Below, one piece after another: positions 1,336 through 14,384 of a stretch of 16,877 bases of DNA. The stretch's first letter is position 1. Each line of letters opens with the position of its first letter. The stretch lies in the IMG/VR virus record IMGVR_UViG_2531839147_000004; one strand, given 5' to 3'. Under the pieces are notes generated by a model. That model worked only from the letters and a program-made list of their open reading frames with translations, was not told where the DNA came from and did not search any database. The translations under genes and the position numbers were made by a program. This DNA is from a virus. Lineage: Duplodnaviria > Heunggongvirae > Uroviricota > Caudoviricetes.

Positions 1336-2406
1336 ATGGCTAACGCCTGGCTCAGATTATGGCATGACATGCCAAATGACCCTAAGTGGCGAACAATTGC
1401 CAGGGTGTCAGGGCAGCCAATTGCAACAGTGATGGCAGTGTATATCCACCTCCTGGTGAGCGCGTCACGAAATGTCACGCGAGGTCACATTGAGGTCACG
1501 ACAGAAGATTTGGCAAGTGCGCTCGACGTGACAGAAGAGGTAATTGATTCAATTTTGCAGACGATGCAGGGGCGGGTACTTGATGGTGATTTAATCACTG
1601 GATGGGAAAAACGCCAGGTGCTTAAAGAGGACAACGGCAATATTTCGCAAACCGCAAAATCTCCTGCAGAGCGCAAGAGGGCGCAGCGAGAGAGGGAAAG
1701 AAAGCGGGAACAAAATGGCGATTGTCACGGCGCGTCACGAAATGTCACGCATATGTCACGACGAGTCACGACAGATAAAGATACAGATAAAGATACAGAT
1801 CAAGAAGATCAAAACACTATGGTCCATGGCGTAAAAAACGCCACGAACCAGGCAGGGGATGTTCAGACCGTCAATCTTGGTCAGCCAGCAGGCACGACAC
1901 CGGAAGCCGATTCAGCGTATGCGCTGAAAGCCGATTCGGGCGCTGTGCAGCAGGTGATGACCGCAAGGCCGGAGCAATCACACCAACTGCAGCAGCCCGA
2001 AGCCGATTCCGCCATTCAGCGGGAAGCCGATCGGGTAGTCCCGGAAAACACCGGGCAGTCTGTGGGACGAGTGGATTATCCGGATGTGTTCGAACAGGTC
2101 TGGCGGGAGTACCCGTTGCGTGCTGGGGCAAACCCGAAGAAATCCGCTTTCAGTGCCTGGAAGGCCAGATTACGCGAGGGGGTGCCACCAGAGGCCATGC
2201 TGGATGGCGTGAGGCGTTACGCAAGATACTTGGCGGCTACCGGGAAAACGGGAACGGAATTTGTTCAGCGAGCGACGACGTTTTTTGGACCGGACCGGAA
2301 TTTTGAGAACCCCTGGTTGCTCCCGGTAAGCGGCACGAACAACCAGCGTTGTGTGAATCATATTTCTGAACCGGATAACGAAATTCCGCCGGGCTTCAGG
2401 GGGTAA
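1336..2406 (+). CDS. Phage replication initiation protein (O-like / YdaU-like replisome organizer) containing the presumptive origin
   Basis: ORF-track start 1330 is GTG; ATG 1336 has SD AAGAGG 6 nt upstream. N-terminal motif WLRLWHDMPNDPKWRTIARVSGQ and conserved C-terminal domain typical of prophage replication proteins; internal iterons (see repeat features). Confidence 0.65.
   Translation: MANAWLRLWHDMPNDPKWRTIARVSGQPIATVMAVYIHLLVSASRNVTRGHIEVTTEDLASALDVTEEVIDSILQTMQGRVLDGDLITGWEKRQVLKEDNGNISQTAKSPAERKRAQRERERKREQNGDCHGASRNVTHMSRRVTTDKDTDKDTDQEDQNTMVHGVKNATNQAGDVQTVNLGQPAGTTPEADSAYALKADSGAVQQVMTARPEQSHQLQQPEADSAIQREADRVVPENTGQSVGRVDYPDVFEQVWREYPLRAGANPKKSAFSAWKARLREGVPPEAMLDGVRRYARYLAATGKTGTEFVQRATTFFGPDRNFENPWLLPVSGTNNQRCVNHISEPDNEIPPGFRG
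1460..1500. repeat. Iteron cluster I: four GTCAC(G) repeats phased at 10-11 bp (starts 1464, 1474, 1484, 1495)
   Basis: Direct reading. 21-bp segment GCGCGTCACGAAATGTCACGC (1460-1480) is repeated exactly at 1730-1750. Confidence 0.75.
1720..1800. repeat. Iteron cluster II (five GTCAC repeats at 1724, 1734, 1744, 1755, 1765) followed by AT-rich 12-bp tandem repeat ACAGATAAAGAT x2.5 (1771-1800); candidate ori inside the initiator gene
   Basis: Direct reading; helical-turn phasing and adjacent AT-rich repeat resemble the ori-lambda arrangement inside gene O. Encodes TDKDTDKDTD in the protein. Confidence 0.6.
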
Positions 2407-2446
2407 GTGTTAATTTCTGGTCATGAGGTAATTTTCAGGAGGGCTT

Positions 2447-2869
2447 GTGGCAAAAGTTTTTACACAAGAAGAGCGGGAAAAAATTAAAGGGCAGGTTCTT
2501 GAACTCGTACGCCAGAGTGGGCGCGAGACGTTACGACAACTGGAAGCTAAAACTGGGGCAACAAGATATCTGATGAGCGTTCTGGCCAGAGAGCTGGTTG
2601 CCAGTGGCGATGTATACAATTCTGGCTACGGGTTATTCCCGTCTGAACAGGCTCGTAAAGACTGGCAAAATGCCCGCAAAAAATTATCGAGGGCAAAGCT
2701 GAAGAAACCGGTTGTGGTTGATCCGGACCTTATCTGGTCATTACCTGACGGAGAAATACGTCGCTACGACAGTCGCCTAAACATAATCTGTCGCGAGTGC
2801 CGGAAGAGCGAAGTTATGCAGCGCATATTGTCGTTTTATCAGGGGGATGTTCGGTATTTATTGAAGTGA
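2447..2869 (+). CDS. Hypothetical prophage protein (GTG start), possible winged-helix DNA-binding protein; last phage-type gene before the cargo block
   Basis: 140-aa ORF, SD CAGGAGGG 5 nt upstream of GTG 2447; basic C-terminus; no Walker A motif, so not a DnaC-type helicase loader. Confidence 0.45.
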   Translation: MAKVFTQEEREKIKGQVLELVRQSGRETLRQLEAKTGATRYLMSVLARELVASGDVYNSGYGLFPSEQARKDWQNARKKLSRAKLKKPVVVDPDLIWSLPDGEIRRYDSRLNIICRECRKSEVMQRILSFYQGDVRYLLK

Positions 2870-2937
2870 CGAGATTAAAGTGCATTAGTTCAGATGCAAA
2901 TTGACATTTTGTGGCACAGGGTAGAGCTAGCGTGGTT

Positions 2938-2961
2938 GTCCGCTTTGTGCCAAGAGCAGAC
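2938..2961. repeat. Dyad element copy A: GTCCGC-N12-GCAGAC
   Basis: GTCCGC TTTGTGCCAAGA GCAGAC, about 240 bp upstream of BCCT start; nearly identical spacer to copy B. Confidence 0.5.
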
Positions 2962-3203
2962 GCTGGTAATTCGTGCCTAATATACTTCACTTAACTTATA
3001 TCCCAGCTTTGATACAGATCATACAAATTAAATGCCCCAGTAATTGGCAGGCTGAGTAACTTAAAACTCCTTAGAATATAGGATGATTTGTATCGGCACT
3101 CATTCCACCATGCATTCCGATTAACCCCGCATAGCCAGTTGAACTTTGCTACTCTGTGAGAGGTAGTACCTTCTATCCAGTGCGGATTTAATTAATGGAA
3201 TAA

Positions 3204-5207
3204 ATGATTATGAGTGAAAATGATACAACCCCAAAGAAGTCTACAAGCCAGATTAACAAAGCGGTATTCTTTACATCTGCTTTGCTAATTTTCCTTCTTG
3301 TCGCCTTTGCCGCCGTATTCCCGGATGTCGCCGACAAAAATTTTAAACTACTTCAGCAACAAATCTTCACGAATGCCAGCTGGTTCTACATACTTGCTGT
3401 GGCCCTGATTTTACTGAGCGTCACGTTCCTTGGACTCTCACGTTACGGTGATATAAAGCTGGGCCCAGACCATGCGCAGCCTGATTTCAGCTACCACTCC
3501 TGGTTCGCGATGCTTTTTTCGGCAGGGATGGGGATCGGCCTGATGTTCTTTGGCGTTGCCGAACCTGTGATGCATTATCTTTCGCCACCTGTCGGCACTC
3601 CAGAGACCGTTGCGGCAGCGAAGGAAGCCATGCGCCTGACGTTCTTCCACTGGGGTCTGCACGCATGGGCAATTTATGCCATCGTGGCGCTGATTCTGGC
3701 CTTTTTCAGTTACCGTCACGGTCTGCCTTTAACGCTGCGTTCTGCGCTCTATCCCATTATCGGCGATCGCATTTACGGGCCTATAGGCCACGCGGTTGAT
3801 ATCTTCGCCGTGATAGGCACTGTCTTTGGCGTTGCAACATCGCTGGGTTACGGTGTATTGCAGGTGAATGCCGGTTTGAACCATCTTTTCGGCGTGCCCA
3901 TCAATGAAACGGTACAGGTCATTTTGATCGTGGTCATCACGGGGTTAGCGACGATTTCGGTGGTGTCCGGCCTGGACAAGGGAATACGCATCCTGTCTGA
4001 GCTTAATCTGGGCCTGGCGGTGTTGCTCCTGGCGCTGGTCTTGTGCCTGGGTCCCACTGTGCTTCTGCTGAAGTCATTTGTGGAAAATACGGGTGGTTAT
4101 CTGTCGGAACTGGTGAGTAAAACGTTCAACCTTTACGCGTATGAACCCAAGTCGAGCAACTGGCTGGGGGGCTGGACATTATTATACTGGGGATGGTGGC
4201 TTTCATGGTCGCCGTTTGTAGGTATGTTCATTGCACGCGTTTCCCGCGGCAGGACAATTCGTGAGTTCGTGACTGGCGTGTTGTTTGTTCCCGCCGGCTT
4301 TACGCTCATGTGGATGACGGTGTTTGGAAACAGCGCCATCTATCTCATCATGAACCAGGGCGCCACTGACCTCGCCAATACCGTTCAGCAGGATGTTGCG
4401 CTTGCCCTGTTTAATTTCCTGGAGCATTTCCCGTTCTCTTCCGTGCTGTCATTCATTGCAATGGCGATGGTCATCGTCTTCTTTGTAACGTCTGCTGATT
4501 CGGGGGCAATGGTTGTGGATACTCTGGCATCAGGTGGGGTGGCAAACACGCCCGTCTGGCAGCGAATTTTCTGGGCATCGCTCATGGGCGTTGTTGCTAT
4601 TGCCCTGCTGATCGCAGGGGGGCTGAGTGCGTTGCAAACCGTAACGATAGCGAGTGCATTGCCCTTCTCAGTTATCTTATTAATATCCATATACGGACTG
4701 TTAAAAGCCCTGCGTCGGGATTTGACCAAGCGTGAAAGCCTTAGCATGGCGACTATTGCTCCTACGGCTGCACGTAACCCAATTCCCTGGCAGAGAAGGT
4801 TACGCAATATCGCGTATTTGCCGAAGCGCTCTCTTGTGAAACGTTTTATGGACGACATTATCCAACCCGCCATGACGCTGGTTCAGGAGGAACTTAACAA
4901 GCAGGGAACGATAAGCCACATCAGTGACGCCGCCGAGGATCGTATTCGCCTTGAAGTCGATTTGGGCAACGAGCTGAATTATATATATGAAGTGAGGCTT
5001 CGCGGGTATAACTCACCGACCTTCGCGCTCGCTGCGCTGGATAATGATGAGCAGCAGAGTGAACAACATCGATATTATCGCGCTGAAGTCTATCTCAAAG
5101 AGGGCGGCCAAAATTATGATGTAATGGGCTGGAATCAGGAACAGCTGATTAATGACATACTGGACCAGTACGAAAAACACCTGCACTTCCTGCATCTGGT
5201 TCGTTAA
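3204..5207 (+). CDS. BCCT-family transporter, BetT-like (choline / glycine-betaine type) with long cytoplasmic C-terminal tail
   Basis: 667 aa; BCCT tryptophan signature GGWTLLYWGWWLSWSPF; overall layout and C-terminal tail (...DILDQYEKHLHFLHL) parallel E. coli BetT as I recall it. Confidence 0.9.
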   Translation: MIMSENDTTPKKSTSQINKAVFFTSALLIFLLVAFAAVFPDVADKNFKLLQQQIFTNASWFYILAVALILLSVTFLGLSRYGDIKLGPDHAQPDFSYHSWFAMLFSAGMGIGLMFFGVAEPVMHYLSPPVGTPETVAAAKEAMRLTFFHWGLHAWAIYAIVALILAFFSYRHGLPLTLRSALYPIIGDRIYGPIGHAVDIFAVIGTVFGVATSLGYGVLQVNAGLNHLFGVPINETVQVILIVVITGLATISVVSGLDKGIRILSELNLGLAVLLLALVLCLGPTVLLLKSFVENTGGYLSELVSKTFNLYAYEPKSSNWLGGWTLLYWGWWLSWSPFVGMFIARVSRGRTIREFVTGVLFVPAGFTLMWMTVFGNSAIYLIMNQGATDLANTVQQDVALALFNFLEHFPFSSVLSFIAMAMVIVFFVTSADSGAMVVDTLASGGVANTPVWQRIFWASLMGVVAIALLIAGGLSALQTVTIASALPFSVILLISIYGLLKALRRDLTKRESLSMATIAPTAARNPIPWQRRLRNIAYLPKRSLVKRFMDDIIQPAMTLVQEELNKQGTISHISDAAEDRIRLEVDLGNELNYIYEVRLRGYNSPTFALAALDNDEQQSEQHRYYRAEVYLKEGGQNYDVMGWNQEQLINDILDQYEKHLHFLHLVR

Positions 5208-5215
5208 CAGCAACA

Positions 5216-5243
5216 TGCCGCCACAGAGGCGGCATTTATTTAT
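5216..5243 (+). terminator. Rho-independent terminator after BCCT gene
   Basis: Stem TGCCGCC / GGCGGCA (7 bp), loop ACAGA, followed by TTTATTTAT. Confidence 0.55.
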
Positions 5244-5386
5244 CCCGGCTGCAATATGAGGGAATGCAGAATGATTTCACGCTGGAAATGGATGCTGAAG
5301 CAGACATTTAAAAACTATGGTTCAGGGCAACGTTATTCGCAATTGTCGCAATAATAACGGCCCTTTTATCAATTCTTTTTAAATCA

Positions 5387-6547
5387 ATGATACCTGAGTC
5401 GGTTTCCGTGAAGGTTGGTGCGGAAGCAGTCGATAACATTCTGAACATACTGGCATCGAGTATGCTGGCAGTGACCACATTTTCGCTGAGCATCATGGTC
5501 ACAGCCTACGGTTCAGCCACTACTAATGTGACTCCCAGAGCTACTCGTTTAGTTGTTGAAGACGTCACCACACAAAATGTACTGGCCACCTTCATCGGTT
5601 CTTTTCTCTTCAGTCTGGTAGGGATTATTGCCCTCAATATGGGAGCTTATGGAGAAAGGGGGAGAGTCATTTTATTCATTGTAACACTGGTTGTCATTGC
5701 CTTAATCCTCATCACATTGCTTCGCTGGATACAGCATTTGACCTCTCTGGGGAGGGTTGGTGAGACAACGGCAAAAGTAGAACAGGCGGCCATCGAAACA
5801 TTTATTGCGAGAGCAAGAAATCCCTGTCTCGGCGGATATCCATGGCTTGAGAACAATGAACAGCCGAAAGGAACGGTTGCAGTTTATCCGAAAAAGATTG
5901 GCTATGTTGAATATGTTGATATGGTGAAACTCAGCAAGCTGCTGACCAATGATCCCCGTCATGTATACCTCGTGGCGCAGCCGGGCAGTTTCATACATCC
6001 GTCCACGCCAGTTTTGTACCTGAGTCAGGGCCAGGAGTCATCAATCAGCACCGATTTACTTGAGACGATTATTGTCTCGGATGTACGTTCATTTGCTCAG
6101 GACCCCCGATTTTGTCTTAGCGTCATGGCCGAAATAGCCTGCCGAGCCCTTTCCCCCGCAGTGAACGATCCTGGAACCGCCATTGATGTCATTGGCAGAG
6201 GTGTACGTATACTTTCCGCTTACGCGCAGAATAAATCTGATGAAATAGAAGTGAAATATCCTTCTGTACATGTTGCACCACTTCAGAATAACGATCTACT
6301 TGAAGACTTTTTCTCACCTGTTGCGCGCGATGGTGCCAGTATGAGGGAAATTCAGATAAGGGTACTTAAAGGACTGTCGATGCTGAGTAAGGGTTGGCCT
6401 GGAATTTTTGCTGAAGCCGCACAAACCCTAGCATTTGAAACATTAGAGCATGCTACTCGTGCTGACCATATAGATTCTGACAGATATCTAATAAAATCAA
6501 TTTATTATAATTTATTTAGTGGCGAAGATTCTAATAAAAAACCATAG
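5387..6547 (+). CDS. Membrane protein of unknown function (DUF2254-like), N-terminus probably disrupted by a frameshift
   Basis: Three predicted TM helices then a soluble C-terminal domain. A well-placed SD+ATG at 5271 opens a 27-codon ORF in another frame; the main frame is open from 5312 and encodes a further TM helix before the first ATG. Confidence 0.55.
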   Translation: MIPESVSVKVGAEAVDNILNILASSMLAVTTFSLSIMVTAYGSATTNVTPRATRLVVEDVTTQNVLATFIGSFLFSLVGIIALNMGAYGERGRVILFIVTLVVIALILITLLRWIQHLTSLGRVGETTAKVEQAAIETFIARARNPCLGGYPWLENNEQPKGTVAVYPKKIGYVEYVDMVKLSKLLTNDPRHVYLVAQPGSFIHPSTPVLYLSQGQESSISTDLLETIIVSDVRSFAQDPRFCLSVMAEIACRALSPAVNDPGTAIDVIGRGVRILSAYAQNKSDEIEVKYPSVHVAPLQNNDLLEDFFSPVARDGASMREIQIRVLKGLSMLSKGWPGIFAEAAQTLAFETLEHATRADHIDSDRYLIKSIYYNLFSGEDSNKKP

Positions 6548-6609
6548 TTGCGGAGCAAGCGATACGGTTGTTGGCAAGTCAAGGGCAAAGCATTCGCGTG
6601 AGAGTGGGC

Positions 6610-6633
6610 GTCTGCTTTGTGCCAGAAGCGGAC
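6610..6633. repeat. Dyad element copy B: GTCTGC-N12-GCGGAC
   Basis: GTCTGC TTTGTGCCAGAA GCGGAC in the convergent intergenic region between the DUF2254-like gene and the LysR gene. Confidence 0.5.
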
Positions 6634-6677
6634 ATACGTAACTTATGATACGCATCGCCAATCATCCGTTTCAAACA

Positions 6678-7559
6678 TCAACGCGGAAACGTTTTAAGAA
6701 TGTAATCCCGAACATAGGCGGTTCGGCTGTTATTAGCCGTCCTTTTGTTCCAGACCAGATAAAGATGATTAGTCGGAGCGAGGTCTGCAGGTGTCACTGA
6801 AATCAGGCGACCACTTTTCAGGTCATTGTCACAGTGATAATCCGGCAGCACTGTCCACCCGTGGCCGTCACAGACCAAGTCGCGGATAATACGTAAATCC
6901 GGAATGGTGAATGTAGCCTGCATCTCAGGGGCTCTCTGAAACATGGAGGCCCAGAGCGCTCTAATCAGTGGCAACTCTTCGTCATAAGCAATCAGCGGTA
7001 ATGAGGCAAGCGTTTCAGCACCAGGTTCTGATCCGATGATCTCTGACATGGCGGGAGCATGAACAAGGAGCATGCGTTCAGTCAGTAGATGTGCATAGCC
7101 GTACAGACGGTCATCAGGCATAGATGCGGTAACAGCGAGATCGGCGCTCCCGTCATGCAAAAGGGAATAAATACGTTGCTTATTGCCGGTATGAAAGCGT
7201 AGGCGATACCCCTCCTTCATTAGTGGAGCCATTACTGTCCCAAGCCGGGAATGAATAAAATCTGGCGGTCCTGCCAGATTAATTGTTCCCCCACGTACAG
7301 AGCCTGACCGGAAAGAGGACAGCTTTTCTTCCAGACCATCAATGAAGGGTGAAACTGAGCGGGCAAGCTCATCCGCAGCTTCGGTTGCCGTCACGCCTCT
7401 GGCCTGCCTGATAAACAGACGCTTACCAACCAGAGTCTCAAGAGACTGGATATGCTGTGACGCCGCGGGCTGAGTGATGCCCAGTAGTTCTGCCGCCTTT
7501 GAAAAGGAGCCAGAGCGATAGGCCTCAAGAAACGTTCGCAGATGGCTCAGATGGCTCAT
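6678..7559 (-). CDS. LysR-family transcriptional regulator
   Basis: 293 aa; N-terminal LysR HTH (LRTFLEAYRSGSFSKAAELLGITQPAASQHIQSLE); start ATG overlaps the stop of the upstream ChaC-like gene (ATGA at 7556-7559). Confidence 0.9.
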   Translation of the reverse strand: MSHLSHLRTFLEAYRSGSFSKAAELLGITQPAASQHIQSLETLVGKRLFIRQARGVTATEAADELARSVSPFIDGLEEKLSSFRSGSVRGGTINLAGPPDFIHSRLGTVMAPLMKEGYRLRFHTGNKQRIYSLLHDGSADLAVTASMPDDRLYGYAHLLTERMLLVHAPAMSEIIGSEPGAETLASLPLIAYDEELPLIRALWASMFQRAPEMQATFTIPDLRIIRDLVCDGHGWTVLPDYHCDNDLKSGRLISVTPADLAPTNHLYLVWNKRTANNSRTAYVRDYILKTFPR

Positions 7560-8248
7560 AGTGAAGCGCCTCGCTGATGAAGTTTATCGTTACAGGGAGC
7601 CTCATGCAGAGCAAGGGCCAGTTCACTCACGTAATCATCCCGTATTCCCAACGCACCCAGAGTGGCCTGCAGTTTCCATACATAATCTGCATTCGTGCCA
7701 ATGTCTCCACGGGCAGATGCGATGCTCAACGCTACGGTCGCTGTAAGATTGTCCTGTTCATAATGCGGATGCAGTCTGTCTGATACGAAAGCCAGCGCCT
7801 GAATTTCCTTACCGTTTCCTAGCGAAACGTCTGCCCAGACCGGACGGTAAAGACCGGTTATCATCTCGCGCGTCCAGACAATTTCCAGCTCATTAATAAG
7901 AGTCGATTCCGGCAGTCTGAACGCAATACCTTCGGTAATTCCACCTTCGTCGAGCGATAACATCCTGCCGGGGACATCAGGAGTCGCTCGTCCGGATATC
8001 AAACGAATGCAGAAACTGCGCTGCCATCCTTTCAGACGGGCCCGTTGCATTTCTTCAATCGCCAGCACGGGATTCCACATCAATGACCCGTAGGCAAATA
8101 TCCAGACAGGAGCACCCGTCGGGCGCTCCTCCAGAGTAGAGTTCATTGATGCGCGTATTTTTTCAGCGTCCCAGAGCATATTCGCCGGGAGCAGCGCTTC
8201 ATGCACCCTGACAAATGTGCCATTAAGCATATTTTCACGGGTAAGCAT
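7556..8248 (-). CDS. ChaC-like gamma-glutamylcyclotransferase (glutathione-specific GGCT family)
   Basis: 230 aa; hallmark VWIFAYGSLMWNP motif and overall co-linearity with E. coli ChaC as I recall it; SD GGGAGG upstream. Confidence 0.85.
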   Translation of the reverse strand: MLTRENMLNGTFVRVHEALLPANMLWDAEKIRASMNSTLEERPTGAPVWIFAYGSLMWNPVLAIEEMQRARLKGWQRSFCIRLISGRATPDVPGRMLSLDEGGITEGIAFRLPESTLINELEIVWTREMITGLYRPVWADVSLGNGKEIQALAFVSDRLHPHYEQDNLTATVALSIASARGDIGTNADYVWKLQATLGALGIRDDYVSELALALHEAPCNDKLHQRGASL

Positions 8249-8259
8249 ATAACCTCCCT

Positions 8260-9459
8260 TTACTGGCCTACGATTTTAACCTGTTGAAATTTACGACTGT
8301 GGCTGCGACGGATTTGTGCAAGCAGCAACAGCAGGCCGAGCAGAGAAACAATCGCACCGCTGATACCGGTATACACGATACCGGCGTGGCTTATAGTAAT
8401 GCTGCCCAGTACTGATCCCAGCGCTATACCTGAGTTGAAGCCCGCAATATTCAGGCCGGCAGCAACACCATGCGCATGAGGAGCATGTTGCTCAGCGACA
8501 CCAATCAGACGGGCCTGCAGTGCCGGCACTGCGGCAAATGTCACCATACCCAGCAGCGCAACCAGAATGCCCATGCTCACCGGTGAGGATGACAGCAGCC
8601 ACATACCAAGCACGACAACAACAATGCCGCTAATGATGAGTATATTGGCACGATTAACCCCCATGCTGTCGGTAAGTTTCCCACCAAGAATATTACCTAC
8701 CGCAGCTGTAATACCGTAAACCAGCATAAACAGACTCACCGTTGCTCCGGTAACCCCTGTCACCTGCGTCAGAATAGGTGCGATAAAGGTGTAATCCGTA
8801 AACGAGCCTGCATACGCCAGCACCGTAACCAGCGCGCCGGCCAGCAACTTACGGTTAAACAGCATGCCGATATTCTGCATTGCTGAGTCACTATGTTCAC
8901 CGGGCACGCTGCGTACGGGATCTTTCATACCGAACAACAGTCCAAGGAATCCGAACGCGCCAAAAGCGGCAATAGCGCCGAGAACTGGACGCCATGAGAC
9001 CACCCCCCCCAACCATGTACTCAGCGGTACGCCGATTGCCATCGCCAGAGTAAAGCCACCAAATACCACAGCCACCGCTCTGCCTGCTTTACCCGGTCCA
9101 GCAAGACGAGCTGCGGTACTGGATGCCGCAGCCAGAAACAGGCCGTGTCCCAGACCAGCAATGAACCGCGCTAACAGGAGCTGAGGTAATGTGGCTGCAA
9201 ACGCGGCCGCCAGACTACCGGCAGTAAACACAACGGCAGTTGTAAGCATTACATTTTTCCGGCTCCAGCTTGCTGTCAGCGCAGACAGTACGGGTGCCGC
9301 GAACGTTGCCCCCAGTGCATAGGTTGTAACCGCTGCCCCGGTCTGCTCCACACCCACACACAACCCCTGAGCCATAACGTCTGTCAGCCCAATGGGGACA
9401 AATTCCGCGAGTCCGAGCGCAAAGGCACTGATAGTAAACACATAAATAACAAATGGCAT
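8260..9459 (-). CDS. MFS transporter (12-TM, YdhP / drug-sugar efflux-like)
   Basis: 399 aa, highly hydrophobic with repeated TM segments; N-terminal LGLAEFVPIGL motif typical of this MFS subgroup; SD CAGGAG before ATG; first gene of the MFS-ChaC-LysR operon. Confidence 0.85.
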   Translation of the reverse strand: MPFVIYVFTISAFALGLAEFVPIGLTDVMAQGLCVGVEQTGAAVTTYALGATFAAPVLSALTASWSRKNVMLTTAVVFTAGSLAAAFAATLPQLLLARFIAGLGHGLFLAAASSTAARLAGPGKAGRAVAVVFGGFTLAMAIGVPLSTWLGGVVSWRPVLGAIAAFGAFGFLGLLFGMKDPVRSVPGEHSDSAMQNIGMLFNRKLLAGALVTVLAYAGSFTDYTFIAPILTQVTGVTGATVSLFMLVYGITAAVGNILGGKLTDSMGVNRANILIISGIVVVVLGMWLLSSSPVSMGILVALLGMVTFAAVPALQARLIGVAEQHAPHAHGVAAGLNIAGFNSGIALGSVLGSITISHAGIVYTGISGAIVSLLGLLLLLAQIRRSHSRKFQQVKIVGQ

Positions 9460-9675
9460 GACTGGCTCCTGATTTAAGTAAGGAGTGCAGTCTGATTTAG
9501 AAAAACAGATAAATAAAATAATGTAAACTTCAGGCGGGATAAAATTATTTATATCTAAGGCAAAGATTCAATATTCCCACAGCACACAGAAGTTTTCTGT
9601 CTTCAGGGAGAGGAGCTTCGAAAGTTCAGACGAAAAATTCCTGCGGCCCCTTTAAGAGTCAGTTGGCCGGGTTTG

Positions 9676-9699
9676 GTCCGCTCCTCGCTCAAAGCGGAC
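9676..9699. repeat. Dyad element copy C: GTCCGC-N12-GCGGAC (perfect arms)
   Basis: GTCCGC TCCTCGCTCAAA GCGGAC about 220 bp upstream of the MFS operon start. Confidence 0.5.
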
Positions 9700-9878
9700 T
9701 AGAAGGTTAGCTTGCGTCGGACTTGGCGTATTTAAAGAAGTGCTGGTGGTGACTGGTTGTTGTGTTCCATTTCTACAGAACAAAATCACAGAAACTATAC
9801 CCAATAGTTATATTGAATCAATGATGAGACAGCCTCATATTTATCAGAACTGGTGTACGTCCAATACAGGAGGTTGTC

Positions 9879-9968
9879 GTGCTGGTTCTCAAATGTGCGC
9901 TAGCTATTGCGGCTGTAATGGCAATTTATTGTCTTGCTGTTGTTCTTATGGAGCGGCTTTCTGATTGA
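9879..9968 (+). CDS. Candidate small hydrophobic peptide (29 aa, MLVLKCALAIAAVMAIYCLAVVLMERLSD)
   Basis: Consensus SD AGGAGG (9868-9873) exactly 5 nt upstream of GTG 9879; single predicted TM helix. No recognised family; speculative. Confidence 0.3.
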   Translation: MLVLKCALAIAAVMAIYCLAVVLMERLSD

Positions 9969-10110
9969 TTACATACTGGCTAGAAAAAAGGTGTTACCTT
10001 GGTTTATCTTTGTCCGGCAAGGTGCGCTCATTAATCTTAAGTAAATTTATTGCTCAAGTATTCAGATTACTTCTTATGGTTGAAGTCTCCTGTCAATGTA
10101 GAACCAATAT

Positions 10111-10152
10111 ATTTACAAAAATGAGACCCGTCGGGGATAGCCCTGCCGGGTC
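10111..10152 (-). terminator. Rho-independent terminator of the YeaR-like gene
   Basis: 12-bp stem (10125-10136 / 10141-10152, one mismatch, loop ATAG); on the minus-strand transcript it is followed by UUUUU. Confidence 0.55.
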
Positions 10153-10182
10153 TGACTGTTAAAGCATTTTTAATATGATCAT

Positions 10183-10521
10183 CTATTTTTTGGTGCTATA
10201 GACTTTTTCGCCCGAGAAGTCTGGAGCGACCCAAAAGTTAATATTAAACTGAGCATCATCGCTTAGTTCAACACGGTGCCAGTATTGTGGTGGGCTTGTT
10301 GCAAAAGCGCCAGCATTAATGACTACTTTTATCTCCGGTTCAGTAGCATTCTCATCAGTAAAACCATAATATGTTACAGTGCCTTCCATTACGCACAACT
10401 GCCCAAAAACACCTGCTGCTGTATTATGATGTGTTAATAACGCTGAAGGTACGTTCTCTTTTGTGAAGAACGGAGTTGAGCGTTTGATTACCCAATCTTT
10501 AGGAATTCTCTTGTGTGTCAT
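10183..10521 (-). CDS. YeaR-like DUF1971 protein (nitrosative-stress regulon type)
   Basis: Motifs KRSTPFF and FATSPPQYWHRVE fit the YeaR/TehB-C-terminal cupin-like family. Start reassigned to the internal Met (ATG 10521, SD GAGGTGG) because the ORF-track start at 10545 lies inside the upstream operator palindrome. Confidence 0.7.
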   Translation of the reverse strand: MTHKRIPKDWVIKRSTPFFTKENVPSALLTHHNTAAGVFGQLCVMEGTVTYYGFTDENATEPEIKVVINAGAFATSPPQYWHRVELSDDAQFNINFWVAPDFSGEKVYSTKK

Positions 10522-10536
10522 AACCACCTCATCAAA

Positions 10537-10559
10537 AACATGCATTATAAATGCGTGTT
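10537..10559 (-). promoter_or_regulatory. NsrR-type operator (11-1-11 palindrome) overlapping a TATAAT -10 element
   Basis: AACATGCATTA T AAATGCGTGTT, 9 of 11 arm positions symmetric; resembles the E. coli NsrR consensus as I recall it. TATAAT on the gene strand sits at the palindrome centre (10545-10550). Confidence 0.5.
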
Positions 10560-11334
10560 TTTGAGGGTTATGTCAAGCTGTTATGAAACACATAATTGAT
10601 ATGTTGATTAGAGGAGAAGATATAATAAATATGGTTGTTTTTCGTATAACTATTTGTTTTACTTTTAGTTTATGCATTCTGTGTGTTAGGAATAAGTTAT
10701 TAAAGTTTAATCAAAAAATCTCGATGTAGTCCACATAGATTATTGTTACTGAACCTTATTGTGTGTATTAGTTGTGTTCTGAAATTTCAGCTTAATTATT
10801 TATGATGTATTTTTTAACGATAAATATTTTCCCAGGATACCTTTACTGTGTATATAAATAAATTATATACACATAAATAATGTAAAGGCGTCCTTTTAGA
10901 TATATCTTATCAAATGTTAATGACTTGAGTGGGAAATATGATTCCAGCAACTTATCATGTGGCTACTTTATAAAAATAATGCCCATATAAAACAACAAGC
11001 GAAAAGGATTACGGATAAAAAAGGAGCGAGATGTGCGAACTTGTTATTTTCCATGTTTAACCACCTTAAATAATTGATGATGACGGGATGATTGCATCTG
11101 TAATGCTTTTATTGAAATGTTATGATAAAAAAGAACTTTTGCATAACATTAAAATGTAATTTATCTAATCGTTTTTAATAATAAATGTCGTATTTCTATC
11201 CTTGTACCAGCTATTTGATATGTAGTGTTTGTTCATGCTATGTGGGGCTTTACACCATAGCCAGTTTATTTATACTTTATTCGTCAGCCTGAACAACTGG
11301 CATCTGCTGCGCTGCGCCATCGAGAGATTGAGAA

Positions 11335-11934
11335 ATGGCGCATATACAACTGGTCAAACAAACTTCTTCTGGTTTACTTCTCCCGGCGACGCCGGAGAGT
11401 TGCGATTTTCTGCATCAAATCAAAATAGGTGAGTGGATACACGCAGACTTTAAGCGTGTGCGTAACTACGCATTCCACAAGCGTTTTTTCAAACTCCTGC
11501 AACTGGGATTCGATTACTGGACTCCGGTCGGTGGGGCGATCACGCCTCGCGAACGAGAACTGCTGTCTGGTTTCGTTGATTACCTGTGCGAATCAGTTGG
11601 TCGGGAACACACGCCAGCCCTGAGTGATGCCGCAGAGCAATACCTTAACACCGTTGCGACTCGTAGAACCCGGGATACGGCGTTGCTAAAGTCGTTTGAG
11701 GCTTTCCGCGAGTGGGTAACCATTCAGGCCGGATTTTACACCGAGCATATTTATCCGGACGGTAGCCGTGGGCGTCGGGCAAAATCCATCGCTTTTGCGA
11801 ATATGGACGAAGTCGAGTTTCAGCAGGTTTATAAATCTGTACTGAATGTGCTGTGGAACTGGATTCTGTTTCGTAAATTCTCCTCTCAGGAGGAAGTTGA
11901 AAATGTGGCCGCACAACTACTGGAGTTTGCGTAA
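11335..11934 (+). CDS. Lambdoid nin-region protein (DUF1367-like), function unknown
   Basis: 199-aa ORF; stop overlaps next start (TAATG at 11932-11936); family assignment from memory only. Confidence 0.5.
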   Translation: MAHIQLVKQTSSGLLLPATPESCDFLHQIKIGEWIHADFKRVRNYAFHKRFFKLLQLGFDYWTPVGGAITPRERELLSGFVDYLCESVGREHTPALSDAAEQYLNTVATRRTRDTALLKSFEAFREWVTIQAGFYTEHIYPDGSRGRRAKSIAFANMDEVEFQQVYKSVLNVLWNWILFRKFSSQEEVENVAAQLLEFA

Positions 11935-12224
11935 TGGTGAATTTACGTAAAGCGGCTAAAGGCCAGATGTGCCAGATCAGAATCCCTGGCTACTGCAATC
12001 ACAATCCCGAAACCTCTGTGCTGGCGCATTACAGGCTGGCGGGGACGTGCGGAACAGCGACAAAACCACACGATATGCAGGCGGCGATAGCCTGTAGCTC
12101 ATGCCACGATCTAATCGACGGGCGGGTAAAAACCAGCGATTACACCAAAGAAGAATTGCGCCTGATGCATGCTGAAGGGGTTTTTCGCACACAAGAAATC
12201 TGGAGAAAGAAAGGTCATTTATGA
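11934..12224 (+). CDS. YbcO-like (DUF1364) Cys/His-rich putative nuclease of the lambdoid nin region
   Basis: 96 aa; Cys/His pattern CQIRIPGYC...H...C...CSSCHDLID matches the DLP12 YbcO family as I recall it; translationally coupled on both sides. Confidence 0.6.
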   Translation: MVNLRKAAKGQMCQIRIPGYCNHNPETSVLAHYRLAGTCGTATKPHDMQAAIACSSCHDLIDGRVKTSDYTKEELRLMHAEGVFRTQEIWRKKGHL

Positions 12225-12763
12225 TTTACCCAACGAATACAGGAAAAAGCGGAGAACACCTTCGCCTCACCACGCTGGAAAGTGTCTGGATTCAGGGAAA
12301 ACTACGTATGTGGGGGCGCTGGTCGTATATTGGCGGTGGCAGGTCAGGGAATATGTTCAATCAGTTGTTGGCATCCAAAAAACTGACGAAAACAGCCATT
12401 AATGAAGCCCTGCGTAGAATGAAAAAAGCGGGAATAGAGAAAGCTGAGCTGGAAGCGTTTTTGCGAGAGATGATCAACGGCAAGCAAAAGAGCTGGCTGG
12501 CGCATTGTACTGATGCAGAGGCGTTATGTATTGATCGAGTCATAAGTGAGGTGCTGGCAGAGCATCCAGGATTGATTTGCATTCTCCGGCAACGCTATGA
12601 AGGGCGGGGGATGACTAAGCGCAAAATGGCTGAATTGCTAAATGATGGACACCCAGAGTGGTGTTTTAGCACATGCGAAAAACGGATTGCTAATTGGTTA
12701 GCTGTTGCTGAGTATGCCCTATATATTCCCATGCGTGAATCATTTGCTGAGAAAATGGCTTGA
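12221..12763 (+). CDS. Putative late-gene antiterminator Q-like protein (DUF1133-type)
   Basis: 180 aa; last gene before a terminator-bearing spacer and the lysis cassette, the position of Q in lambdoid phages; ATGA overlap with the upstream gene. Confidence 0.5.
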   Translation: MIYPTNTGKSGEHLRLTTLESVWIQGKLRMWGRWSYIGGGRSGNMFNQLLASKKLTKTAINEALRRMKKAGIEKAELEAFLREMINGKQKSWLAHCTDAEALCIDRVISEVLAEHPGLICILRQRYEGRGMTKRKMAELLNDGHPEWCFSTCEKRIANWLAVAEYALYIPMRESFAEKMA

Positions 12764-12839
12764 TTTCTTACGTATAAACTGCTTCAATTTTGCTATGCTT
12801 CGCAAAGCTGTATCGCGAGGCGGATTGCAGACATGGACA

Positions 12840-12860
12840 TCGTAAAAAAACCGCTTAATG
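12840..12860 (+). terminator. Candidate tR'-like terminator downstream of the Q-like gene
   Basis: A7 - ACCGC TTAAT GCGGT - T7; short GC stem flanked by A and T runs. Confidence 0.4.
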
Positions 12861-13189
12861 CGGTTTTTTTACGTCAGGAAAGCAGGGGAGAATGCTGCTA
12901 GTTGGGCAACTGGTCTTTCTGCTCCAAATTATAACAGAGACCAGTTATAGTTTCGGTGCTGTGTTTTTTTACAATATTGTGATAACACATTGCTGGCGGG
13001 AGTTTTGATATTTCTTGGCAGGGGCTGATGATGCGTTATCCTGATGTCGTCAACTCATATAAAATGAGATGAGAGATCATTGCAGGGTGGTTTGTAATTC
13101 GCTGTTTAGCGGGACAATATGTTGTCTGATACAAGACACCCGACGCCTCAGATTACTATAATAAAGACGAAGCATCCTTTGTATTGACC

Positions 13190-13215: not shown

Positions 13216-13805
13216 GGACTGGTTTATTGTATGCCAAATGATTATTAAAAAGGTTGTGTTAATAACAAAATCCGAAATAATATGCCTGCATATTTTTATC
13301 TTGCTTATATTCTGCATATTGTGCATAGCAGGCTCATCCCTGCAATCAAAACTGTATGATGAGTTATTTTTTTTTCCTTTTTTCCAGTCATCTGATGATG
13401 ACCTGCTTCTTTTTAATCCGGATCGACATCAGTTTTTTAAGATAATTCCTGCGAGTTATATGCATAAATACCACAAACTCCGCATTTTATGTGGTTGGGA
13501 GTTGCCGGGCGCGCAGTGAGTTTGCTAAGAAAACTCCTGCATGGTGAATCCCCCTGTGCGGTGGGGTGATACCATTAACCTTTTCTGTCGCCGACAGGTA
13601 TCACGAACATTTTGTTCACCGGGAGGCACCCGGCACCATGCACTTCAATAGATTCTCTCCACATTATGGATATTCTTTCAGAATATCCCACGCAGACTTT
13701 GTGTAAATGTTAACAAATGTGCGTTTTATTTGATCTGATTCGCTGTTTGAGCGTCCAAAACAACGGTATATATAATCCTTTACTATATGACATATGTGAG
13801 GAAAA

Positions 13806-14234: not shown

Positions 14235-14384
14235 TATTTATTGTTTTGTAATAAACGGTTTCGGCTTAGGTTTGTTCTGACACAGCTACGGCACTGAGCT
14301 AAATTTAGCGGATAGTCAGCTCTGAGCCAGTGGCGGACGTAACAACTACTATTGCTGAGATTTTAATGGATTGAGGAGCAAGAA

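What the first reader, a model, noticed from the sequence alone, without database searches (positions are those of the whole stretch)
2870..11334. Chromosome-like cargo block between the prophage replication module and the nin/Q module
The replication genes end at 2869 and the nin-like genes begin at 11335. Between them lie the BetT-like transporter, DUF2254-like protein, MFS-ChaC-LysR operon and YeaR-like gene, with no phage functions, flanked on the right by a 770-bp AT-rich ORF-poor stretch (10560-11334). Either this is moron cargo in a single prophage, or two prophage remnants flank a chromosomal segment. No integrase or att site is visible in the window to decide.
Basis: inference. Interest (0 to 1): 0.45.

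Follow-up and report, generated by a model that had tools for sequence, protein, structure and literature searches.

The report
Cargo cassettes in a Rac prophage hotspot
The transporter and enzyme genes are passenger cargo inside one defective E. coli prophage (Rac), sitting in a gene-swapping slot whose edges are marked by a 24-base recombination motif already known from phage P2, so the cargo itself is ordinary but the slot's exchange mechanism is worth testing.

Summary
The window is the middle of a Rac-type cryptic prophage integrated in ttcA. The integrase and both 26-bp att repeats lie just outside it, and 2,486 of 5,426 complete E. coli genomes show the exact empty site. So this is one prophage with internal cargo, not two remnants around chromosome.

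The true variable insert is 2962-9675. The YeaR-like (DUF1971) gene and the AT-rich stretch (9984-11334) are shared with related Rac-type phages.

The insert has two modules: BetT-like BCCT plus DUF2254, then LysR-ChaC-MFS. Every module junction coincides with a 24-nt dyad motif, GTCYGCTTT-GWGCSA-ARNAGCRGAC, at 2938, 6610 and 9676 (the last inverted).

The same motif brackets the Z/fun cassette of phage P2, where GenBank annotates it as inverted repeats (Nilsson 2004). It also brackets about 60 different cassettes in viral contigs, many of them anti-phage defence genes, and flxA in K-12 Qin.

Sites come in two centre types, T and A, arranged T> cassette A<. Homology breakpoints fall at the 6-bp centre. 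A 200-aa tyrosine recombinase sits between sites in some arrays.

Most likely mechanism: site-specific cassette exchange. This is inferred, and the enzyme is unproven. The cargo function (choline uptake, gamma-glutamyl metabolism) is predicted only.

The parts
2447..2869 (+). DUF977 (LygF-like) gene, the last conserved gene of the early/replication module; left backbone of the slot
   Evidence: Pfam PF06163, 2e-28. Homology to the cargo-less prophages L003 and L004 runs through it to 2961.
2938..2961 (+). Site 1, T-type (GTCCGCTTT-GTGCCA-AGAGCAGAC), pointing into the slot; left boundary of the variable region
   Evidence: Exact match to the motif. PWM score 42.3 bits against a maximum of 4.6 in shuffles. 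Homology to L003 and L004 stops at 2961.
2962..6609 (+). Module A: BetT-like BCCT transporter (3204-5207) and DUF2254 membrane protein (5271-6547, frameshifted here at the A-run 5310-5314)
   Evidence: The core 3101-6629 is also in a chromosomal island next to an IS3-family transposase gene, the shf-capU-virK-lpxM cluster and acuR, at 94% and 99.8% identity. It is on 1,532 plasmid records. It is followed by at least 5 different cassettes in other loci.
6610..6633 (+). Site 2, T-type (GTCTGCTTT-GTGCCA-GAAGCGGAC), a direct copy of site 1, at the module A/B junction
   Evidence: 40.8 bits. Homology to L088, which has the same module A but a different downstream cassette, ends at 6635. A degenerate copy follows DUF2254 in the island and in Klebsiella plasmids.
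6634..9675 (-). Module B: LysR regulator (6678-7559), ChaC-like gamma-glutamylcyclotransferase (7556-8248) and MFS transporter (8260-9459), one co-directional gene set
   Evidence: Pfam. ChaC-like matches human ChaC2 structures at 2e-8 and keeps the YGSLMW motif. MFS is nearest to the Cmx/CmrA, sugar-efflux and AraJ models but below their cut-offs. Present in 311 of 5,426 genomes, 310 of them at 99% or more; no plasmid in the PLSDB search carries it.
9676..9699 (-). Site 3, A-type (GTCCGCTTT-GAGCGA-GGAGCGGAC on the minus strand), inverted relative to sites 1 and 2; right boundary of the variable region
   Evidence: 39.8 bits. Homology to L003 resumes at 9676 and to L004 at 9685.
9700..9983 (+). 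Conserved right flank shared by Rac-type and Qin-type prophages; holds an unannotated 29-aa hydrophobic ORF (9879-9968) with an AGGAGG Shine-Dalgarno sequence
   Evidence: 97% identical in L004 and 93.8% in L088. The ORF is intact with conservative changes in 51 loci.
9984..11334 (-). Lineage-specific accessory segment, not part of the insert: DUF1971 (YeaR/TehB-N-like) gene 10183-10545 and the AT-rich stretch 10560-11334
   Evidence: 99% identical in Rac of strain G12 (L003). From 10186 onward, 90-92% identical in phage vB_EcoS-666R9. GC 0.28-0.29.
11335..12763 (+). nin/Q-like module (DUF1367, DUF1364, DUF1133/Q-like); right backbone
   Evidence: Pfam and RefSeq annotation.
14315..14338 (+). 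Fourth, diverged copy of the motif (GTCAGCTCTGAGCCAGTGGCGGAC) between two TolA-like ORFs downstream of the Q-like gene
   Evidence: 3 mismatches. PWM score 31.3 bits against a maximum of 4.6 in shuffles. Also present in L087.

Best explanation
The block is accessory cargo inside a single Rac-type cryptic prophage of E. coli.

The prophage sits in ttcA. Its attL lies about 7.8 kb left of the window and its attR about 3.1 kb right of the window's end. It has lost its lysis, head and tail genes.

The cargo occupies a cassette slot between the DUF977 gene and the nin genes. The slot is delimited by 24-bp dyad sites made of two 9-bp arms around a 6-bp centre. There are two classes of site: T-type with centre GTGCCA and A-type with centre GAGCGA. 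The standard unit is T> cassette A<, and adjacent units are separated by about 18 nt.

In the window the arrangement is T> [BCCT-DUF2254] T> [LysR-ChaC-MFS] A<.

I infer that cassettes are swapped by recombination inside the sites. The most likely mechanism is site-specific exchange by a tyrosine recombinase acting on two heterospecific site classes, a natural analogue of recombinase-mediated cassette exchange. Module A acts as a resident piece carrying its own T half-site, and different cassettes have been swapped in behind it.

Once assembled, the 6.7-kb composite spread between lambdoid prophages together with its homologous flanks, and it is now inherited vertically in a defective Rac.

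The predicted benefit to the host is choline or betaine uptake plus a LysR-controlled gamma-glutamyl (glutathione-type) degradation and transport unit.

Shown here: prophage identity and limits, the empty site, the junctions, the site architecture, cross-family cassette sharing and the breakpoint positions. Inferred: that a recombinase acts on the sites, which enzyme it is, and the cargo's physiological role.
For: One prophage:
- intR and xisR lie next to ttcA, followed by the Rac genes recET, kilR and sieB, with pinR at the far end.
- A 26-bp direct repeat lies at both ends.
- Rac is known to integrate in ttcA (PMC4632033).
- The exact empty site is present in 2,486 of 5,426 genomes.

Slot:
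- Homology to cargo-less relatives breaks at 2961 and at 9676/9685.
- Other occupants of the same slot are AbiH plus a partner gene, an FRG-domain protein, a ParA set and a single 269-aa protein.

Sites:
- There are three exact copies at the three junctions, with 0 expected by chance.
- More than 119 viral contigs hold the motif.
- Of 83 cassette-flanking site pairs, 61 are T>...A<. Ten of 14 short separators are A< then T> (or its reverse complement), and ten of 14 have exactly 18 nt between the sites.
- There are 60 distinct sequence clusters among 82 inter-site units. They carry AbiH, DarTG, ThsB, reverse transcriptases, PD-T7-1 and PD-T7-5, SIR2, GNAT, LysE and others.
- Phage P2's Z/fun cassette and the two-cassette Z region of P2-EC46 are bracketed by T> and A< sites in the same way, and GenBank annotates the latter's flanks as left and right inverted repeats.
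- K-12 flxA is bracketed by a T> site and a degenerate inverted copy of undetermined centre type.

Recombination at the sites:
- A 984-bp cassette is 99.7% identical between a lambdoid prophage and a P2-like contig. The homology runs exactly from site to site (1,033 bp), and the outer site positions stay with each backbone.
- Motif positions 3, 7, 10 and 13 track the outside context (z 6-14). Positions 15, 16 and 20 track the cassette (z 3-4).
- The two centre positions are perfectly linked, AG in 64 sites and TC in 51.

Candidate enzyme:
- A 200-aa Phage_integrase-domain protein sits between an A< and a T> site in an IncY plasmid, a Qin-like prophage and a third contig, and next to such sites in a Nissle 1917 island (its A< there fell below the scan threshold). 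The unit is present in 888 of 5,426 genomes.
- Its homology to other copies starts and ends exactly at the 6-bp centres.
Against: - No recombinase gene of this kind lies in the window or in the Rac element of TH9F11. The small recombinase is in only 3 of about 125 fetched motif loci and 16% of genomes, so it could itself be cargo.
- Because the centre is constant within a class, breakpoints at the centre are also what short-homology recombination between 24-bp repeats would leave.
- The predicted simple event, module A absent in front of module B, was not found in any of 5,426 genomes.
- Transfer between the Rac-type and Qin-type prophages involved the homologous flanks, 2401-9983 contiguous at 99.8%, so ordinary homologous recombination suffices for that step.
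- The hairpins are not unusually stable (z about -0.5).
- Stem pair 3/20 shows no compensatory change: CG 61, TG 28, CA 21, TA 2.
- The cargo's function rests on family assignment only, and DUF2254 is frameshifted in this window.
Confidence: 0.6

Rival explanations
1. The 24-bp motif is conserved for some other reason, such as a protein-binding or insulating hairpin at gene-set boundaries. Cassettes are then exchanged by ordinary or phage-encoded (Red/RecET-type) homologous recombination, using the motif merely as short shared homology. No dedicated recombinase is involved.
For: Rac itself encodes RecE and RecT. Rac-to-Qin-type transfer of the whole composite used long homologous flanks. Most motif-bearing loci carry no small recombinase. 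Breakpoints within a constant centre cannot separate the two models.
Against: Exchange between a lambdoid and a P2-like phage had only about 24 bp of imperfect identity at each end, yet it left clean site-to-site homology at 99.7%. The two strictly linked centre types and the regular T>...A< polarity with 18-nt spacers have no obvious role in plain homology. The sites are not terminator-like, having no T-run. Gene orientation inside cassettes is random, 38 against 40.
Confidence: 0.3
2. Two separate prophage remnants flank a piece of ordinary chromosome.
For: The cargo genes look like housekeeping-type transporters and enzymes, with GC 0.51-0.57, close to that of the neighbouring phage early genes.
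Against: There is one integrase and one pair of att repeats, and the exact empty site is present in 2,486 genomes. Relatives have other cassettes between the same two flanks. The same block sits in a second prophage at another chromosomal site.
Confidence: 0.02
3. The block was brought in by insertion sequences, as a composite transposon or by IS-mediated capture from a plasmid or island.
For: Module A lies next to IS3-family and IS1 transposase genes in the chromosomal island and in Klebsiella plasmids. In some strains IS3 and IS100 are inserted near the left junction. In L088 the window bases 2938-2940 and 3042-3047 appear on both sides of those insertions, which I read as target-site duplications.
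Against: The window has no IS, no IS end and no target duplication at 2961/2962, 6633/6634 or 9675/9676. All three junctions coincide with the motif instead. Module B has no IS-linked copy anywhere in the collections searched.
Confidence: 0.06

Closest known systems
Inverted-repeat-flanked Z/fun region cassettes of P2-like coliphages (Nilsson, Karlsson and Haggard-Ljungquist 2004, Mol Biol Evol 21:1). GenBank AJ512680 annotates 'left/right inverted repeat'. Summarised in PMC8987985.
   Same: Same 24-nt core motif. The same T> cassette A< arrangement brackets Z/fun in P2, and P2-EC46 holds two cassettes with an internal separator. One cassette is shared at 99.7% between a P2-like contig and a Rac-type prophage. 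Site-specific recombination was already proposed for these repeats.
   Different: Here the slot is in lambdoid (Rac and Qin-type) prophages, between the replication and nin genes, not between the tail genes G and FI. The occupant is a 6.7-kb two-module transport/metabolic block with an extra direct T site. I could not read the 2004 paper, so I cannot say whether the two centre classes, the 18-nt separators or the small recombinase were described there.
Known Rac prophage cargo such as trkG in E. coli K-12 (own knowledge), and morons in general (PMC3594210, listed, abstract only)
   Same: Non-phage transporter genes carried inside Rac, dispensable for the phage and variable between strains. Some strains carry both trkG and this block (hits H18-H20).
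   Different: trkG lies elsewhere in Rac, after the lysis genes. This block lies in the site-bounded slot after DUF977.
Integron gene cassettes
   Same: Arrays of short gene cassettes delimited by imperfect palindromic recombination sites. A tyrosine recombinase is sometimes embedded. Defence genes are common cargo.
   Different: There is no IntI next to the array. The sites do not have the attC layout or the GTTRRRY core. Each cassette has two inverted sites of different class rather than one attC. Genes face either way, 38 against 40.
pdif (XerC/D) modules of Acinetobacter plasmids, and engineered recombinase-mediated cassette exchange with heterospecific lox or FRT sites (own knowledge, not tested here)
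   Same: Gene modules bracketed by inverted arm-centre-arm sites with a 6-bp centre. The use of two non-cross-reacting site classes would fix the orientation of a swapped cassette.
   Different: The sequence is unrelated to dif. There are two sites with an 18-nt spacer between neighbouring cassettes rather than one shared site. No enzyme has been shown to act on these sites.

Membership tests
Rac prophage (lambdoid cryptic prophage integrated in ttcA) | Integrase and excisionase next to ttcA, and characteristic early genes (recET, racC, kilR, sieB) | tested here: met
   RefSeq annotation of the identical region in strain TH9F11. Integration in ttcA with intR/xisR is described in PMC4632033.
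Rac prophage (lambdoid cryptic prophage integrated in ttcA) | att direct repeats at both ends and an empty site in other strains | tested here: met
   The 26-bp repeat TTGTTCAGGTTGTATTGTTCTTTCTT lies at L001 8245 and 36002. The synthetic empty site is contiguous in 2,486 of 5,426 genomes.
Moron / lysogenic-conversion cargo | Dispensable DNA, absent from close relatives at the same position | tested here: met
   L003, L004 and L088 carry other DNA between the same flanks. No phage record among 50,697 carries the block.
Moron / lysogenic-conversion cargo | Own promoter and terminator, expressed from the prophage | tested here: inconclusive
   Promoter-like sites are no more frequent than chance, 14 against 14.4. 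One terminator-like hairpin follows the BCCT gene at 5215-5235. There are no expression data.
Inverted-repeat-flanked cassettes of the P2 Z/fun type | Variable DNA bracketed by an inverted pair of the conserved repeat | tested here: met
   T> at 2938 and A< at 9676. The same core lies in P2 at 15423 and 17021, and in AJ512680 under the annotated inverted repeats.
Inverted-repeat-flanked cassettes of the P2 Z/fun type | Homology breakpoints fall at the repeats | tested here: met
   Breaks fall at 2961, 6633-6635 and 9676. Site-to-site homology links lambdoid and P2-like loci. Breaks fall at the 6-bp centre around the recombinase unit.
Inverted-repeat-flanked cassettes of the P2 Z/fun type | A site-specific recombinase acts on the repeats | not testable with these tools
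   There is only a candidate, a 200-aa Phage_integrase-domain protein placed between sites in some arrays.
Integron | IntI integrase with attI next to the cassette array | tested here: not met
   No such gene in the 27.8-kb element. The only tyrosine recombinase is the lambda-type IntR at the prophage end.
Integron | One attC per cassette, with cassettes co-oriented | tested here: not met
   Each cassette has two inverted sites of different class. Gene orientation is 38 plus against 40 minus.
Composite transposon / IS-mediated insertion | IS copies or IS ends and target duplications at the junctions | tested here: not met
   None at the three junctions in the window. The IS elements seen in other strains are secondary insertions.
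Anti-phage defence system | Match to known or candidate defence protein models | tested here: not met
   No PADLOC hit for any of the six cargo proteins or for the 74-aa ORF 9740-9964 scanned with them, although many other cassettes in the same kind of slot do match.

The most novel reading that the evidence does not exclude
The T-type and A-type 24-bp sites would form a dedicated, heterospecific cassette-exchange system. It would be shared by lambdoid prophages, P2-like phages, an IncY (P1-type, own knowledge) plasmid and chromosomal islands of Enterobacteriaceae, and driven by a small array-embedded tyrosine recombinase acting in trans. This would be a natural form of recombinase-mediated cassette exchange that moves defence and metabolic genes between unrelated mobile elements. 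It would be testable in E. coli K-12 (the flxA cassette of Qin) and in Nissle 1917.
Probability: 0.3. Interest if true: 0.75.

Novelty: new member of a known kind. Interest (0 to 1): 0.45.

Why it matters

The junctions matter more. A recent study of P2 and P4 hotspots states that how defence and accessory cassettes move between unrelated phages, satellites and plasmids remains unclear (PMC13586616).

Here a defined 24-bp site pair marks cassette borders in both lambdoid and P2-like phages. One cassette was exchanged between the two families with breakpoints inside the sites. A candidate recombinase sits in the arrays. Examples also exist in laboratory strains, which makes the mechanism directly testable.

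Tried and rejected
- **Rfam.** A scan of the whole window at E up to 1 gave no family on the motif. It found only STnc100 and a weak isrK-like hit.
- **Hairpin stability.** Folding the sites as single strands gave stabilities no better than shuffles. Counting stem pairs gave no compensatory covariation. I therefore dropped a structured-RNA or terminator reading. The sites also have no T-run, and cassette genes face either way.
- **Donor of the LysR-ChaC-MFS set.** The best ChaC relatives outside E. coli are 61% identical (Serratia, Erwinia) and have no MFS or LysR neighbours at E below 1e-10. No donor was identified.
- **Literature.** A search for the motif string returned only unrelated papers. 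Searches for lambdoid boundary sequences or cassette exchange found nothing specific. Nilsson 2004 and Odegrip 2006 could not be read.
- **Module A excision test.** I tested the prediction that module A can be absent in front of module B. The junction was found in 0 of 5,426 genomes.
- **REP/BIME-like genome-wide repeat.** Rejected, because there are only 1-6 copies per genome, all outside annotated genes or in prophage regions in the rows inspected.
- **Transposon-type terminal repeats.** Rejected, because the outer half of each site stays with the backbone.

Full report
**Where the window comes from.** The whole 16,877-bp window matches many complete E. coli chromosomes at 99.9-100% identity. 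In strain TH9F11 it is collinear except for a few differences.

In that strain the window sits inside a 27.8-kb element. The element begins with intR and xisR next to ttcA and continues with rcbA, ralR, recT, recE, racC, kilR and sieB. Then come the window's genes, and the element ends with tfaR, pinR and ydfK before uspF. That is the Rac prophage, which is known to integrate in ttcA and to use IntR and XisR (PMC4632033).

A 26-bp direct repeat, TTGTTCAGGTTGTATTGTTCTTTCTT, lies at both ends. One copy is in the ttcA end and the other is just before uspF.

I built the predicted empty site from the ttcA side, one repeat and the uspF side. It is present as one contiguous stretch in 2,486 of 5,426 complete genomes, at 100% identity in the records listed.

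The prophage is defective. Matches to whole lambdoid phages stop at 15248, right after a holin gene. Matches to side tail fibre genes start at 15431. RefSeq calls a tail fibre ORF that starts at the holin stop. The lysis, head and tail genes have therefore been deleted.

- DUF977 ends at 2869.
- The BetT-subfamily BCCT transporter is at 3204-5207.
- DUF2254 is at 5271-6547.
- LysR, ChaC-like and MFS lie on the minus strand at 6678-9459.
- DUF1971 is at 10183-10545.
- DUF1367 starts at 11335.
- GC drops to 0.28-0.29 at 10.5-11.25 kb.
- None of the cargo proteins matches a defence model.

One detail differs. In this window DUF2254 carries a 1-nt deletion in an A-run at 5310-5314. That shifts the frame after codon 14, whereas TH9F11 has the intact 425-aa gene.

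**The real limits of the insert.** I compared the window with three relatives that lack the block: a Rac prophage (strain G12, L003), a Qin-like prophage (L004) and phage vB_EcoS-666R9 (L002), whose record is a complete 38.7-kb phage genome.

- Homology to L003 and L004 stops at 2961. It resumes at 9676 in L003 and at 9685 in L004.
- L002 matches only inside the DUF977 gene (2448-2852) on the left and again from 10186 on the right.
- The 9676-9983 segment is common to Rac-type and Qin-type prophages.
- The DUF1971 gene and the AT-rich stretch are 99% identical in L003. From 10186 onward they are 90-92% identical in the phage.

So the variable insert is 2962-9675, about 6.7 kb.

In the same slot other prophages carry AbiH plus a partner gene, an FRG-domain protein, a ParA-containing gene set or a single 269-aa protein. 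The slot is therefore a hotspot for accessory genes.

**Two modules with different histories.**

*Module A (BCCT plus DUF2254).*

- It occurs at 94% identity, and in some strains at 99.8%, in a chromosomal island. There it lies next to an IS3-family transposase gene, the shf-capU-virK-lpxM cluster and acuR.
- It occurs on 1,532 plasmid records, mostly conjugative Klebsiella plasmids. In the one inspected it lies near the sil genes.
- It occurs on the IncY plasmid pPO125 at 99.9% identity.

*Module B (LysR-ChaC-MFS).*

- It is found in only 311 E. coli genomes, 310 of them at 99% identity or more. No record of the plasmid collection searched carries it.
- The best ChaC-like relatives among 185,579 species representatives are 61% identical. 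None has a neighbour detectably related to the cargo's MFS or LysR proteins.

The complete composite also sits at the same slot in an apparently complete lambdoid prophage next to rspB. That prophage has terminase and lysis genes. The homology, 2401-9983 at 99.8%, includes the flanks. About 226-282 genomes carry the Rac version.

**The junction motif.** A repeat search found a shared sequence at all three junctions.

- 2938-2961 ends exactly at the left junction.
- 6610-6633 ends at the module A/B junction.
- 9676-9699, inverted, starts at the right junction.

The pattern GTCYGCTTTGWGCSARNAGCRGAC has these three exact matches in the window, with none expected by chance. A position-weight scan scores them at 42, 41 and 40 bits, against a maximum of 4.6 in shuffled sequence. 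A fourth, diverged copy at 14315 scores 31 bits.

The motif reads as two 9-nt inverted arms around a 6-nt centre. It is not a genome-wide repeat. A 33-nt query spanning site 1 finds 1-6 places per genome in 3,461 of 5,426 genomes.

**The motif elsewhere.** Four regularities emerge from those loci.

1. Sequence on the 5' side of a site falls into a few conserved contexts, while the 3' side is hypervariable.
2. The two variable centre positions are strictly linked, which gives a T-type centre (GTGCCA) and an A-type centre (GAGCGA).
3. Sixty-one of 83 cassette-flanking pairs are T> ... A<.
   - Neighbouring units are separated by a short spacer between an A< and a T> site.
   - The spacer is exactly 18 nt in ten of 14 such separators.
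   - Arrays reach up to four units.
4. The 82 units fall into 60 sequence clusters of 0.2-5.6 kb, mostly 0.3-3.5 kb. Genes face either way, 38 against 40.

The proteins in these cassettes include AbiH, DarT/DarG, ThsB, defence reverse transcriptases, PD-T7-1 and PD-T7-5, SIR2, HEPN and a restriction enzyme. They also include GNAT, LysE, NUDIX, HAD and glyoxalase-type proteins. The window's cargo is an unusually large and purely transport/metabolic occupant.

**Prior art.** The same site query hits phage P2 and P2-like phages.

- In P2 a T> site at 15423 and an A< site at 17021 bracket the cassette between the tail genes G and FI. From my own knowledge this is the Z/fun-orf30 cassette.
- In GenBank AJ512680 (P2-EC46 Z region) the sites lie under features annotated as left and right inverted repeat. 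That region holds two cassettes with an internal separator.

These records belong to Nilsson et al. 2004, which I could not read. [quoted passage not shown]

So the motif and the idea of site-specific exchange are not new. I cannot tell whether the lambdoid slot, the two site classes, the separators or the recombinase candidate described below were reported there. Recent hotspot papers that I could read do not mention the repeats.

**Evidence that recombination happens in the sites.**

- A 984-bp cassette encoding WP_000161640.1 is 99.7% identical between the Rac prophage of strain G12 and a P2-like contig.
  - The alignment runs exactly from the first base of the T> site to within one base of the end of the A< site, 1,033 bp in all. 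There is nothing alignable outside it.
  - The outer positions of each site keep the backbone's variant.
- Across 118 distinct site instances, positions 3, 7, 10 and 13 are linked to the outside context (z 6-14). Positions 15, 16 and 20 are linked to the cassette side (z 3-4).
- Module A behaves as an outside piece. Its T site keeps a constant 5' half, and its 3' arm changes with whichever cassette follows. At least five different cassettes follow it.

**A candidate enzyme.** In the IncY plasmid pPO125, in a Qin-like prophage (strain WCHEC035125 and an equivalent viral contig) and in contig L191, a 200-aa protein with only a Phage_integrase catalytic domain is encoded just after an A< site. 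In pPO125 and L191 a T> site follows it directly, so it occupies the place of the 18-nt spacer. In a Nissle 1917 island the same unit lies within a site-bounded array, though its A< copy fell below the scan threshold.

The unit is present in 888 of 5,426 genomes. Aligned copies begin exactly at the centre TCGCTC of the left site and end exactly after the centre GTGCCA of the right site. The 9-nt cassette-side arms differ with each neighbour.

Arms that segregate independently around a constant 6-bp centre are what a tyrosine recombinase core site would leave. Two centre classes would make the two ends of a cassette non-interchangeable, as in engineered cassette exchange. This remains an inference.

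- The enzyme is absent from this Rac element and from most fetched loci.
- It may itself be cargo.
- Short-homology recombination would leave the same pattern. Rac encodes RecET.
- A direct prediction, module A absent in front of module B, was not met in any genome. That fits a single assembly of the composite followed by clonal and flank-mediated spread.

**How the cargo probably works.**

- The BCCT protein passes the BetT subfamily threshold, so choline or betaine uptake for osmoprotection is the best guess.
- DUF2254 has no known function.
- The ChaC-like protein aligns to human ChaC2, a glutathione-specific gamma-glutamylcyclotransferase, and keeps the YGSLMW motif.
- With the adjacent DHA1-like MFS transporter and a LysR regulator, it looks like a regulated unit for breaking down and transporting a gamma-glutamyl compound.

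All of this rests on family membership only.

- The block is a new occupant of a known kind of phage cassette slot.
- Interest is moderate. The cargo is ordinary.
- The site architecture, the sharing across phage families and the embedded recombinase give a concrete and testable handle on how phage hotspots exchange genes.

Noticed in passing
window 5310-5314: The DUF2254 gene has an A5 run where strain TH9F11 has A6. This shifts the frame after codon 14. It is either a real inactivating slip in a homopolymer or a sequencing error.
   Followed up: partly
window 9879-9968 (+): An unannotated 29-aa hydrophobic ORF (VLVLKCALAIAAVMAIYCLAVVLMERLSD) has an AGGAGG Shine-Dalgarno sequence 5 nt upstream. 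It lies in the conserved 300-bp flank next to the A-type site. It is intact, with conservative substitutions, in 51 fetched loci. It may be a small membrane peptide or a type I toxin-like gene. In Qin-type prophages hokD follows it.
   Followed up: partly
window 13509-13695 (+) and 12797-12870 (+): Rfam finds the sRNA STnc100 at 86.6 bits (gathering score 47) downstream of the Q-like gene. It also finds a weak isrK-like match at 21.6 bits, below that family's gathering score.
   Followed up: no
window 14315-14338 (+): A fourth, diverged copy of the junction motif, with the hybrid centre GAGCCA, lies between two TolA-like ORFs in the late region. It is also present in the rspB-side prophage. 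It may mark a second cassette slot downstream of Q.
   Followed up: partly
window 15248-15431: Deletion joint of the prophage. Matches to complete lambdoid phages end at the holin stop (15248), and side tail fibre homology starts at 15431. RefSeq calls a chimeric tail fibre ORF from 15248.
   Followed up: partly
L208 7002-8016 (E. coli K-12 J53, Qin prophage): In K-12 a T-type site at 7002 and a degenerate inverted copy at 7993 bracket flxA. The annotated ydfV ORF overlaps the T site, and relBE and hokD lie immediately outside it. K-12 therefore has a ready-made test case.
   Followed up: partly
L211 (IncY plasmid pPO125, 52296-67970): An IncY plasmid (P1-type, own knowledge) carries a stretch of the lambdoid hotspot next to qnrS1 and IS26. 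The stretch runs relB, T> module A T>, a 476-aa gene, A<, the small recombinase, T>, the 269-aa cassette, A<.
   Followed up: partly
L213 5489-9780 (E. coli Nissle 1917 chromosome): A site-bounded array that includes the 200-aa recombinase lies in a region with no phage genes annotated in the stretch fetched. It is beside dynamin-like, RdcB-family and patatin-like genes and a TonB-dependent receptor.
   Followed up: partly
L088 6072-9392 (ETEC strain L5_E1779): IS3 is inserted at the first three bases of site 1 (window 2938-2940 are present on both sides of it) and IS100 at 3042-3047. Several of the best-matching genomes also carry IS3 or other IS elements in the matched stretch.
   Followed up: no
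L005/L006 10695-11352: In the chromosomal island the BCCT-DUF2254 pair is followed by acuR, an acrylate-utilisation regulator. This hints that the transporter's natural substrate might be a DMSP- or betaine-type compound rather than choline.
   Followed up: no
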